From the NCBI RefSeq assembly GCF_057098645.1, contig NZ_CM169472.1: 64,000 nucleotides of DNA, one strand, 5' to 3'. Position numbers and translations under genes: made by a program. The stretch's first letter is position 1. Every line of letters begins with the position of its first letter. Positions 9,546 to 11,265 of the stretch are shown here, one piece after another. The notes under the pieces are model-generated. The model made no database searches. It worked only from the letters and a program-made list of their open reading frames with translations, and had not been told where the DNA came from.

Positions 9546-9578
9546 ATGCAAACTCTTTCTGAACGCCTCAAGAAGTGA
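9546..9578 (+). pseudogene. cro: cro (434-type) truncated after about 10 codons by IS629
   Basis: ATG CAA ACT CTT TCT GAA CGC CTC AAG AAG = MQTLSERLKK, then the IS629 terminal repeat begins at 9576 and supplies a stop. Confidence 0.85.
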
Positions 9579-9617
9579 ACCGCCCCGGGTTTCCTGGAGA
9601 GTATTTTATCTGTGAAC

Positions 9618-10508
9618 TCAGGCTGCCAGATCATTATTTCCGATGGAAGCATAATAAGCTTTTTCTGCTTCTGCCGGAGGAATATGGCCCAGCCTTTCCA
9701 GCAATCGTCGATTGTTATACCAGTCCACCCACGTGAGTGTGGCCAGTTCCACTTCTGCACGGTTTTTCCAGCTCTTACGGTGTATTACCTCCGCTTTGTA
9801 AAGACCATTGATGCTCTCCGCCATCGCGTTGTCATACGAGTCGCCAGTACTCCCTGTTGATGCCAGTAATCCGGCTTCCTTAAGCCGCTGCGTGTAGGCC
9901 AGCGATACATACTGAGAACCTTTATCACTGTGATGGATTGTGCCGGACGGCCGACGGGCCCACAACGCCTGCTCCAGTGCATCCAGCACGAATGTTGTTT
10001 CCATGGATGATGAGACCTGCCATCCCACGATGTATCCGGCGAACACATCAATGATGAACGCCACATAAACGAAGCCCCGCCATGTGCTGACGTAAGTAAA
10101 ATCAGCCACCCACAGCTGGTCAGGTCGTTCTGCCACGAACTGACGGTTTACGCGGTCGCCTGCGGCAACGGCTTTCCGGCTGATGGTCGTACGGACCTTT
10201 TTACCCCGGAGAACACCGGCAAGTCCCATAACTGCCATGAGACGTGCCACAGTGCATCTGGCCACTCTGATACCTTCCCGTAACAACTGACGCCAGACTT
10301 TACGCACACCGTATACCTGGTGATTTTCATCGTATACGCGCTGTATCTCTTTCTTCAGCCAGTCATCGTGCTGCGCACGGGCACTGCGTTTATCCGGATG
10401 ATGTCGCTGTTGCTGACAGTGGTAATACGTTGACGGGGCAATATGCAGTTCGCTGCATAGCGGTCCGACCCCGTACTGCTCACGCAGCTTATCCAGCAGT
10501 GGCATCAT
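9618..10508 (-). CDS. IS629 transposase OrfB, 296 aa
   Basis: Track ORF with the IS3-family DDE core (…[11 protein letters not shown]…[10 protein letters not shown]…YDNAMAES…). Confidence 0.9.
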
Positions 10509-10831
10509 TTTTTCCAGAGGCGGTCGAACTCCGCCTTCGCAAAATAAGCGGAAGCCTGGCGAAGGATATCGTTACTGCGGCGCAGTTCACGATTTTCACG
10601 CTCCAGCTCTTTCAGACGCTGACGTTCAGCGGTGGTGAGCCCGCCATCACCGCCCCCGGTATCCCGCTCATGCTGGCGAACCCAGACACGCAGAGTCTCC
10701 GGCGTACAGCCAATCTTTGGAGCAATGGAACAAATTGTCGCCCATTGTGAGTCATATTCATCCTGACTTTCCAGAACCATACGAATCGCCCGCTGACGGA
10801 CTTCGGGGGAAAAACGAGTATTTTTAGTCAT
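10505..10831 (-). CDS. IS629 transposase OrfA, 108 aa
   Basis: Track [60 protein letters not shown]...; overlaps orfB in the -1 frame. Confidence 0.9.
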
Positions 10832-10885
10832 CCTGTTTACCTCTTTCTCAGGGAGTTTAGTCTCCAGGATTTCCGGGGCGGTTCA

Positions 10886-11265
10886 ACCAGCCAGAAAACG
10901 ACCTTTCTGTGGTGAAACCTGATGCTGCATGGGGGACAGCAGAAGACCTGACCGCCGCAGAGTGGATGTTTGACATGGTGAAGACTATCGCGCCATCAGC
11001 CAGAAAACCGAATTTTGCAGGGTGGGCTAACGATATCCGCCTGATGCGTGAACGTGACGGACGTAACCACCGCGATATGTGTGTGCTGTTCCGCTGGGCC
11101 TGCCAGGACAACTTCTGGTCCGGTAATGTGCTGAGCCCGGCCAAACTCCGCGACAAGTGGACCCAGCTCGAAATCAACCGTAACAAGCAACAGGCAGTCG
11201 TGACAGCCAGCAAACCAAAACTCGACCTGACAAACACAGACTGGATTTACGGGGTGGATTTATGA
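10886..11265 (+). pseudogene. O: Replication initiator O, C-terminal ~120 codons only (5' part and ori deleted)
   Basis: Frame ending ...NHRDMCVLFRWACQDNFWSGNVLSPAKLRDKWTQLEINRNKQQAVVTASKPKLDLTNTDWIYGVDL matches the lambda O C-terminus; begins at the IS629 boundary. Confidence 0.85.

What the first reader, a model, noticed from the sequence alone, without database searches (positions are those of the whole stretch)
9546..11265. IS629-associated deletion removing most of cro, all of cII and nutR, and the 5' part of O including ori
cro stops after 10 codons (MQTLSERLKK) where the IS629 terminal repeat begins. On the other side of the IS, the sequence resumes in the C-terminal third of O (…TDWIYGVDL). 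The IS has no 3-bp target duplication (flanks AAG and ACC), whereas copy 2 does (GCT/GCT). That pattern fits an IS-mediated adjacent deletion rather than a simple insertion. The result is a prophage that cannot make Cro, cannot replicate from ori-lambda and lacks the rightward N-utilisation site, while cI stays intact: a repressor-locked, replication-dead element.
Basis: partly seen in the sequence, partly recalled or inferred. Interest (0 to 1): 0.6.

Follow-up and report, generated by a model that had tools for sequence, protein, structure and literature searches.

The report
IS629-linked deletion in a 434-type prophage
An insertion sequence (IS629) sits exactly where 1,133 bp of the control and replication region of a phage-434-like prophage have been lost from an E. 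coli O145:H28-type chromosome, which is a real but ordinary kind of prophage decay in this group of pathogens.

Summary
Window 9576-10885 is a complete 1,310-bp IS629 with its transposase on the minus strand. Its left flank ends at codon 10 of the phage 434 cro gene. Its right flank resumes at nucleotide 503 (codon 168 of 299) of the replication gene O. The flanks match phage 434 at 99.9% on the left and with no mismatches on the right. The 1,133 bp between them are missing: cro codons 11-71, boxA/nutR, cII, PRE, oop, and O codons 1-167 with all four ori iterons. They occur nowhere else in the window. There is no target duplication (AAG/ACC), whereas five simple IS629 insertions, copy 2 included, each have a 3-bp one. 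cI and OR are identical to 434.

The route stays unresolved: a one-copy adjacent deletion or recombination between two IS629 copies. "Repressor-locked" overstates the case, because cI remains cleavable and the PL operon, int/xis and both att cores are intact. The prophage was already defective, lacking its tail genes in all relatives.

Sister genomes carry at least five other deletion alleles of this region. Most right ends cluster just right of ori. Two IS-free alleles end 3 nt outside an IS end. This is a new allele of a well-known process, of low interest.

The parts
538..552 (+). attL core of the prophage (lambda att core GCTTTTTTATACTAA)
   Evidence: Exact match. The second copy lies at 42274-42288. 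The site lies between ybhC and ybhB/bioA, as in O145:H28 genomes.
8214..8228 (-). nutL boxB, the only boxB in the window
   Evidence: Pattern search found a single match. It corresponds to the nutL annotated in phage 434.
8810..9442 (-). cI repressor, 210 aa, identical to phage 434 cI
   Evidence: ORF listed. Protein is 100% identical to 434 cI.
9443..9545 (.). OR3-OR2-OR1 with PRM and PR, identical to phage 434
   Evidence: Sequence identical to L006 5143-5245. PR hexamers fall at 9490-9518, matching the 434 annotation.
9546..9578 (+). cro remnant: 10 codons (MQTLSERLKK) plus a TGA stop supplied by the IS terminus
   Evidence: The 434 Cro is 71 aa.
9576..10885 (-). IS629 copy 1, complete at 1,310 bp. 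IRR abuts the cro remnant and IRL abuts the O remnant. No target duplication (AAG / ACC).
   Evidence: Best full-length match among 31,182 places in E. coli genomes is 98.4%. It is a mosaic relative to other copies.
10886..11265 (+). 3' remnant of replication gene O, from nt 503 (codon 168) to the stop. It encodes the last 125 residues and carries an 18-bp in-frame deletion near 10929.
11262..11963 (+). Intact P gene (helicase loader), left without O and ori
   Evidence: PHROG 109 at 6e-99. The identical protein occurs in many relatives.
12276..12299 (+). tR2-type intrinsic terminator downstream of ren. It is expected to block PR transcripts that can no longer be N-modified.
   Evidence: Terminator scan found 8 pairs followed by a T run. 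A terminator is annotated at the same place in 434. The functional consequence is inferred from lambda biology.
21380..25333 (+). IS629 copy 2, a simple insertion with TSD GCT/GCT. It is itself split by an IS21-family element at 22197-24834.
   Evidence: The empty site is present in RM13514.

Best explanation
A phage-434-type prophage at the lambda attachment site lost 1,133 bp of its switch and replication region through an event driven by a single IS629 copy.

**Most likely route (inferred).**
1. IS629 first inserted into gene O just to the right of ori, at O nt 503-505 (ACC).
2. An aberrant IS3-family transposition reaction then joined the other IS end to a site in cro. IEE, which O145:H28 strains encode, may have assisted.
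3. This removed everything between, including the left copy of the target duplication.

**What is shown.**
- The IS ends abut cro codon 10 and O nt 503.
- There is no duplication.
- The missing DNA is not elsewhere in the window.

**Consequences, inferred from lambda/434 biology.**
- There is no Cro, so the anti-immune state cannot be established.
- There is no CII or PRE.
- There is no nutR, so PR transcripts cannot be N-modified and should stop at tR2 before reaching Q.
- There is no O N-terminal domain and no ori, so the element cannot replicate.
- The repressor, PL operon, integrase and excisionase remain.
For: - The junctions and the size of the gap are defined against phage 434 and against a same-lineage genome. 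L026 still carries the whole segment at 100% identity and shares the 18-bp marker.
- A 3-bp duplication is present at five simple IS629 insertions: C7 AAC, O157 2571 ATC, E105 ATA, O103 12009 GCT and window copy 2 GCT. It is absent here.
- The O-side junction recurs. L011 has an IS629 end at O nt 502. The IS-free allele L010 begins at O nt 506/507, which is 3-4 nt outside the window's IS end. In parallel, the IS-free allele L012/L017 begins 3-4 nt outside the IS end of C325. Three nucleotides outside the opposite end is where IS3-family strand transfer occurs (bioRxiv 10.1101/2023.06.07.543989).
- Left ends differ between alleles (cro, N, near xis, int) while right ends cluster. This is what deletions anchored at one IS end would produce.
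- Literature: IS3-family elements create adjacent deletions of varied length, some leaving the IS intact (PMC8860574). IEE-dependent events delete from a few nt to more than 40 kb next to IS629 (PMC9943667). O145:H28 carries iee (PMC5567499). Only 21 of 47 IS629 sites in O157 genomes keep a duplication (PMC3271280).
Against: - No genome with a simple insertion at either junction was found, so the first step is inferred.
- The IS at the neighbouring junction in L011 is in the opposite orientation and of another sequence type. The alleles therefore cannot form a simple nested series from one insertion.
- Copy 1 is a unique mosaic: 98.4% best match overall, with its last 502 nt identical to an O103 copy. 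That would also fit IS-IS recombination or conversion.
- The final structure is the same as that left by recombination between two direct copies.
Confidence: 0.55

Rival explanations
1. Two IS629 copies inserted separately and in the same orientation, one in cro (duplicating AAG) and one in O (duplicating ACC). RecA-dependent recombination between them then removed the interval and one copy. This left a single hybrid IS with one flank from each insertion.
For: - IS629-IS629 recombination is active at this very locus. RM13514 and RM9154-C1 carry inversions between IS629 copies of an arrangement still seen uninverted in 95-3192 and RM9872.
- IS629/IS1203 insertions are frequent in this region in the same orientation as here: C7 between cro and cII, and O157 2571 in O.
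- Copy 1 is a mosaic not matched above 98.4% anywhere, while its IRR-side 502 nt equal an O103-type copy exactly.
Against: - The IRL-side 808 nt have no exact parent either, with a best match of 99.0%. There is therefore no clean two-parent chimera.
- IS629 copies are mosaic in general.
- No genome shows either parental insertion.
- This route does not explain why IS-free alleles end exactly 3-4 nt outside IS ends.
Confidence: 0.3
2. A second IS629 inserted directly against a resident copy in inverted orientation. The resulting 1.3-kb palindrome was then resolved by loss of one arm plus the adjoining DNA. This left a flipped IS at almost the same junction and a one-sided deletion.
For: - Two pairs of alleles have IS629 in opposite orientation at the same or adjacent bond.
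- In the first pair, L026 has IS(-) with TSD TAG at O nt 225-227. RM13516 has IS(+) with the identical left junction and about 600 bp deleted to the right.
- In the second pair, the window has IS(-)|O nt 503 and L011 has IS(+)|O nt 502.
- IS629 is reported to lack sequence-specific targets (PMC3271280), which makes coincidence less likely.
Against: - No abutting inverted pair was observed in any genome examined.
- End-targeted insertion is recalled from IS911 work and was not tested here for IS629.
- A structural insertion hot spot next to ori would explain the same pairs.
Confidence: 0.08
3. The junction is an assembly error. Reads from two or more IS629 copies were collapsed, so the 1.1-kb interval was dropped and the IS sequence is a consensus of several variants.
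For: - Neither junction occurs in any other assembly searched.
- The IS sequence is unique, and its OrfB is not on record in the protein collection.
Against: - Both junctions are clean to the base and the flanks are otherwise 99.9-100% identical to relatives.
- Related genomes assembled independently show comparable deletions at the same place.
- Copy 2 in the same window is a different variant and is identical to copies in other O145:H28 genomes. IS variants were therefore not blended throughout the assembly.
Confidence: 0.04

Closest known systems
IS629-associated small structural polymorphisms and IEE-promoted deletions in EHEC (Ooka 2009 Genome Res; Kusumoto 2011 Nat Commun; cited through PMC9943667, PMC8860574, PMC3271280)
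   Same: - The same IS, the same group of hosts, and a prophage target.
- Loss of the target duplication, and a deletion that begins exactly at an IS end.
- IS-free sister alleles whose ends lie 3-4 nt outside an IS end with 1-nt microhomology.
   Different: - This particular allele (cro codon 10 joined to O nt 503) was not found in any database searched.
- The role of IEE is inferred from its reported presence in O145:H28. It was not seen in the window.
Bacteriophage 434 (OL657226) immunity and replication region
   Same: - cI, OR, the first 10 codons of cro, N, nutL, the O C-terminus, P, ren and the nin genes are 99.9-100% identical.
   Different: - It lacks 1,133 bp (cro to the O N-terminus with ori) and 18 bp in the O linker.
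- The late region differs and lacks tail genes.
- It carries LpxR and EspJ cargo.
Engineered defective lambda prophage of recombineering strains (cI857, deletion from cro to bioA; recalled from memory, Yu et al. 2000 PNAS)
   Same: - Repressor, PL, N, gam, bet and exo are kept.
- cro and the replication genes are removed, so PL expression after derepression is not shut down by Cro and the element cannot replicate.
   Different: - This one arose naturally and has a wild-type SOS-cleavable 434 repressor rather than a thermolabile one.
- P, the nin region and the late genes are still present.
- No evidence that it serves the host.
Sister alleles of the same att-lambda prophage in O145:H28-type genomes (RM13516/RM12761, RM13514/95-3192/RM9872, C325, Z1323HEC0399)
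   Same: - Same attachment site, same 18-bp marker where the region survives, and the same missing tail genes.
- Every allele lacks ori.
   Different: - Breakpoints differ: O nt 227|841; near xis|ren; near xis|O nt 477; N|O nt 481; int|O nt 506.
- In those that carry an IS, it is in the opposite orientation and of another sequence type.

Membership tests
IS629 (IS3 family) | About 1,310 bp with terminal inverted repeats beginning TGAACCGCCCCGG | tested here: met
   Window 9576-10885 is 1,310 bp and both termini are present.
IS629 (IS3 family) | Two overlapping reading frames (OrfA, OrfB) joined by programmed -1 frameshifting with a pseudoknot | tested here: met
   OrfA is 108 aa and OrfB is 296 aa. 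Rfam RF01497 scores 120 bits at 10434-10550.
IS629 (IS3 family) | High nucleotide identity to recognised IS629/IS1203 copies | tested here: met
   96.4-98.4% identity over the full length to copies annotated as IS629/IS1203/IS3 family.
IS629 (IS3 family) | 3-4 bp target duplication at a simple insertion | tested here: not met
   The flanks are AAG and ACC. This is expected if a rearrangement followed insertion. It speaks against a simple insertion, not against the element's identity.
IS-associated deletion (IS retained) | Both flanks collinear with an uninterrupted reference, with a gap exactly at the IS | tested here: met
   The 1,133-bp gap is defined against phage 434 and against same-lineage L026.
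IS-associated deletion (IS retained) | The missing DNA has not moved elsewhere (no inversion or translocation) | tested here: met
   Absent from the 64-kb window, and gene order on both sides is collinear with 434. The rest of the genome could not be examined.
IS-associated deletion (IS retained) | A precursor with a simple insertion at one of the two junctions | tested here: not met
   None in 5,426 complete E. coli genomes or in the species-representative genomes. The nearest is an IS end 1 nt away in L011, in the opposite orientation.
IEE-promoted IS629 excision or deletion | iee present in the same genome | not testable with these tools
   The window has no candidate. PMC5567499 reports iee in O145:H28 strains RM13514 and RM13516.
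IEE-promoted IS629 excision or deletion | Deletion ends at or 3-4 nt outside an IS end, with little or no homology | tested here: met
   Met for the IS-free sister alleles L010 and L012/L017. This does not apply to the window allele itself, which retains the IS.
imm434 lambdoid prophage | 434 repressor and operators | tested here: met
   cI is 100% identical and the OR region is identical. The wider region is 99.8% identical to phage 434.
imm434 lambdoid prophage | Complete lytic switch and replication module (cro, cII, O, ori, P) | tested here: not met
   Only P and fragments of cro and O remain.

The most novel reading that the evidence does not exclude
The stretch of O just right of ori in this att-lambda prophage may be a recurrent breakpoint that IS629 uses in a special way.

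- At least six different alleles in O145:H28-type genomes all remove ori.
- Five of seven right ends fall within 30 bp.
- IS-free alleles end exactly 3 nt outside IS ends.
- IS629 occurs twice in opposite orientation at the same or neighbouring bond.

This leaves room for two readings. One is a flip-and-delete pathway: inverted insertion against a resident copy, followed by loss of one arm and its flank. The other is repeated selection for loss of the origin in a prophage kept for other reasons.

A further untested idea is that the IS transposase genes, which lie co-directional with cI and 134 bp upstream of it, feed read-through transcripts into cI as PRE once did.
Probability: 0.15. Interest if true: 0.5.

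Novelty: new member of a known kind. Interest (0 to 1): 0.2.

Why it matters
On its own the finding adds one more documented way in which IS629 erodes prophages in enterohaemorrhagic E. coli, a process already described in outline.

Its practical value is threefold:
- The two junctions are strain-specific markers, useful for IS-based typing of O145:H28.
- Together with its sister alleles, the locus is a compact natural series for studying how IS3-family elements and IEE produce deletions. It includes base-level signatures such as the 3-nt offset.
- It shows that an effector-carrying prophage can keep its repressor and an SOS-inducible PL operon (Red functions, Kil, Int/Xis) while being unable to replicate or run its late programme. 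This bears on predicting which prophages in outbreak genomes can still be induced.

Tried and rejected
- **Looking for the same junctions elsewhere.** 200-bp junction probes against 5,426 complete E. coli genomes found no contiguous match. An exact 40-mer of the left junction was absent from the species-representative genomes. That collection holds only one genome per species, so it was a poor choice for a within-species question.
- **A misleading partial hit.** The O111:H8 strain 8E hit (H33) proved to be an unrelated locus.
- **Testing whether copy 1 is a clean two-parent chimera.** Its last 502 nt equal an O103 copy. Its first 808 nt have no exact match, with 99.0% at best. The result is inconclusive.
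- **Finding the source genome.** The exact OrfB protein of copy 1 is not on record.
- **Inversion between the two IS629 copies in the window.** Rejected, because copy 2 keeps its duplication and gene order is collinear with 434.
- **Deletion first, IS insertion afterwards.** Rejected, because an insertion would have left a duplication.
- **A second copy of cro, cII or O in the window.** None was found.
- **Literature gap.** Ooka 2009 (PMC2765283) could not be read, so its content is cited only through papers that quote it.

Full report
**What is in the sequence.**

Window 9576-10885 is a complete IS629. It is 1,310 bp long, with termini TGAACCGCCCCGG...CCGGGGCGGTTCA. OrfA (10505-10831) and OrfB (9618-10508) are intact on the minus strand. 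The frameshift pseudoknot is recognised by Rfam at 120 bits.

To its left lie the cI repressor gene (8810-9442, minus strand), the operator region and the first 30 nt of cro. The cro reading frame gives MQTLSERLKK and is closed by TGA, the first three bases of the IS. To its right the sequence reads straight into the 3' part of the replication gene O, ending ...TDWIYGVDL at 11265. The genes P, ren and the nin region follow.

**Sizing the deletion.**

The flanks are nearly identical to bacteriophage 434 itself (OL657226):
- Window 7001-9575 matches 434 locus L006 2702-5275 at 99.88%.
- Window 10886-13734 matches L006 6409-9275 with no mismatches and one 18-bp gap.

The missing piece is L006 5276-6408, exactly 1,133 bp. 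By the annotation of the 434 record it contains:
- cro codons 11-71, boxA-right and nutR;
- cII, the PRE promoter and oop RNA;
- O nt 1-502, which includes the four O-binding iterons.

O resumes at nt 503, inside codon 168 of 299. About 43% of O is therefore retained, rather than a third.

The 1,133 bp, cII and the O N-terminus are not elsewhere in the window. The only boxB is nutL at 8214-8228. cI is 100% identical to the 434 repressor and the operator region is identical.

**The target-duplication argument.**

The triplets flanking copy 1 are AAG and ACC. Five simple IS629 insertions examined here each have a 3-bp duplication:
- C7, AAC;
- O157:H7 strain 2571, ATC;
- strain E105, ATA;
- O103:H2 strain 12009, GCT;
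- window copy 2, GCT.

The empty site for copy 2 exists in strain RM13514. Absence of a duplication is nevertheless common. In four O157:H7 genomes only 21 of 47 IS629 sites keep one, and 62% of copies lie in prophages (PMC3271280).

**Where the window comes from.**

The chromosomal part (bioA to uvrB) is 100% identical to E. coli O145:H28 strains. The prophage lies between two lambda att cores at 538-552 and 42274-42288, between ybhC and ybhB/bioA. Neither IS junction occurs in 5,426 complete E. coli genomes. The left junction is also absent from the species-representative genomes.

**Sister alleles of the same prophage.**

The same prophage at the same site in other genomes shows a series of different lesions. 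The O numbering below follows phage 434.

| Genome(s) | Left end | IS629 | Right end |
|---|---|---|---|
| Window | cro codon 10 | minus orientation | O nt 503 |
| RM13516, RM12761 | O nt 227 | plus orientation | O nt 841 |
| 95-3192, RM9872 | window position 2170 (near xis) | plus orientation | ren |
| RM13514, RM9154-C1 | as the row above, with further IS629-IS629 inversions | plus orientation | ren |
| C325 | window position 2026 | plus orientation | O nt 477 |
| Z1323HEC0399 and a draft (L012) | N gene (window 7991) | none | O nt 480/481 |
| Read-set assembly L010 | int (window 1233) | none | O nt 506/507 |
| Draft L011 | unknown (contig starts in the IS) | plus orientation | O nt 502 |
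| L026 | O nt 227 (simple insertion, TSD TAG at nt 225-227) | minus orientation | O nt 225 |

RM13516 and RM12761 keep cro and cII. In L026 everything else is intact and 100% identical to the reconstructed ancestor.

Where this part of O survives (the window, C325, L010, L011, L012, L017 and L026), it carries the 18-bp deletion in the O linker. That deletion is therefore a lineage marker.

Every allele except L026 lacks ori. Five of seven right ends fall between O nt 477 and 507, just to the right of the origin.

**Mechanistic signatures.**

Two features stand out.

First, both IS-free alleles begin 3-4 nt outside an IS end seen in another allele, with a single shared A at the joint:
- L010 begins 3-4 nt outside the window's IS end.
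- L012/L017 begins 3-4 nt outside the C325 IS end.

In IS3-family transposition one end attacks the same strand 3 nt outside the other end. Deletions have been explained by that transfer going to the wrong place (bioRxiv 10.1101/2023.06.07.543989). IEE-dependent events delete from a few nucleotides to more than 40 kb next to IS629 (PMC9943667). IS3 also makes adjacent deletions that sometimes leave the IS intact (PMC8860574). O145:H28 strains carry iee (PMC5567499).

Second, right ends cluster while left ends vary. This is what deletions anchored at one IS end would give.

On this basis I favour a specific route for the window allele. IS629 inserted at O nt 503-505, and a leftward transposase-driven deletion then reached cro. 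I put this at about 0.55.

**Why the route is not settled.**

- Recombination between two direct IS629 copies would leave the same product, and IS629-IS629 recombination is plainly active here, as the inversions show.
- Copy 1 is a unique mosaic. Its best full-length match among 31,182 places is 98.4%. Its last 502 nt are identical to an O103:H2 copy. Its first 808 nt reach at best 99.0%. This hints at IS-IS exchange but gives no clean two-parent chimera.
- Two pairs of alleles carry IS629 in opposite orientation at the same or adjacent bond: L026 against RM13516, and the window against L011. A simple nested series from one insertion cannot produce that. A structural hot spot beside ori could explain it. 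So could inverted insertion against a resident copy followed by loss of one arm. I could not test either.
- An assembly artefact is unlikely but cannot be excluded without reads.

**Functional reading.**

What follows is inferred from lambda and 434 biology.
- Without Cro the element cannot establish the anti-immune state.
- Without the O N-terminal domain and the iterons it cannot initiate replication, and the origin cannot be supplied in trans.
- Without nutR, transcripts from PR cannot be N-modified. They must cross the IS in antisense and should stop at the strong tR2-type terminator at 12276-12299, before reaching Q at 16463-17236.

"Replication-dead" and loss of the rightward programme are therefore well founded.

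"Repressor-locked" is too strong. The repressor is the unchanged 434 protein, so it should still be cleaved during SOS. PL, nutL, N, cIII, kil, gam, bet, exo, xis and int all appear intact. Both att cores are intact too. Derepression of the left operon and excision as a non-replicating circle remain possible.

The layout resembles the engineered defective prophage used for recombineering, which is recalled from memory. There is no evidence that this one serves the host.

**Other damage to the prophage.**

The deletion is not what first disabled this phage.
- All tail genes from FII to most of J are absent. FI at 36060-36491 is followed by the last 113 residues of J. The window aligns contiguously with RM13514 and RM13516 across this stretch, and both records annotate only a partial tail-tip gene after FI. 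The loss therefore predates the lineage-specific IS events.
- The window also carries a triple-nested IS: an IS3-family element split by IS629 copy 2, which is itself split by an IS21-family element.
- An IS2 sits where relatives carry 3.7 kb with nleH and cif.

**Verdict.**

This kind of event is well known in enterohaemorrhagic E. coli. The allele itself is new to the databases searched. The allelic series around it is a tidy natural record of IS629-driven prophage erosion, with two unexplained features worth a specialist's glance.

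Noticed in passing
window 39259-40589: A complete IS2 (1,331 bp) sits where RM13516 and RM13514 carry about 3.7 kb with the effector genes nleH and cif. It begins right after the nleH start codon. The flanks (...ATGTATG / TATGCCC...) lack the 5-bp duplication expected of IS2. This is a second IS-linked deletion in the same prophage.
   Followed up: partly
window about 20700-25950: Three insertion sequences are nested. An IS3-family element (transposase fragments at 20729-21472 and 25552-25899) is split by IS629 copy 2 (21380-25333, TSD GCT). 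Copy 2 is in turn split by an IS21-family element (22197-24834, IstA and IstB, flanked by a 6-bp repeat CTTCGT).
   Followed up: partly
window 36060-36933: The head-packaging gene FI is followed directly by the last 113 residues of tail-tip protein J. All tail shaft and assembly genes are missing. RM13514 and RM13516 appear to share this state (contiguous alignment with the window; only a partial tail-tip gene annotated after FI), so it likely predates the IS629 events.
   Followed up: partly
window about 10929 (between 10928 and 10930): An 18-bp in-frame deletion in the O linker removes residues IQSGSK. It lies between short GCAGCAA/GCTGCAA repeats. It is shared by all relatives of this prophage that still have this part of O (C325, L010, L011, L012, L017, L026), but not by phage 434 or strain C7.
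   Followed up: yes
L026 1537-2846 versus L007 12494-13803; window 10885/10886 versus L011 648/649: IS629 occurs in opposite orientations at the identical bond (O nt 227) in two genomes. It occurs at bonds 1 nt apart (O nt 502 and 503) in two others. IS629 is reported to have no sequence-specific target, so this needs either a structural hot spot beside ori or an in-place flip mechanism.
   Followed up: partly
L010 2069/2070; L012 2514/2515; L017 3102/3103: IS-free deletion alleles of the same prophage end 3-4 nt outside the IS ends seen in the window and in C325, with a 1-nt overlap. This fits excision-with-deletion by the IS3-type transposase together with IEE.
   Followed up: partly
window 9576-10885: IS629 copy 1 is a sequence variant not matched above 98.4% by any of 31,182 IS629-like places in complete E. 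coli genomes. Its OrfB is not on record in the large protein collection. It differs at 33 positions from copy 2 in the same window. Copy 2 is identical to the RM13516 copy and to one of the RM13514 copies.
   Followed up: partly
window 9442-9618: The IS629 transposase genes run in the same direction as cI and end 134-176 bp upstream of it, with no predicted terminator between. Read-through could supply cI transcripts much as PRE did before it was deleted. This is an untested idea.
   Followed up: no
window 6855-7736 and 8409-8885: Two phage 434 accessory genes are conserved and intact. One is a 289-293-aa protein annotated in the 434 record as carrying a Nun-like C-terminal peptide. The other is the gene annotated there as Hex, said to protect the repressor from RecA-dependent cleavage. 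Neither matched an NCBIfam model.
   Followed up: no
window 15112-16071 and 41222-41875: Cargo genes are retained in the decayed prophage. One is an LpxR-type lipid A deacylase, named from the annotation of relatives. The other is the type III effector EspJ (413 bits against the NCBIfam model).
   Followed up: partly
window 25745-25867, minus strand: A full-length match to the Rfam isrC Hfq-binding sRNA family (150 bits) lies inside the outer IS3-family element.
   Followed up: no
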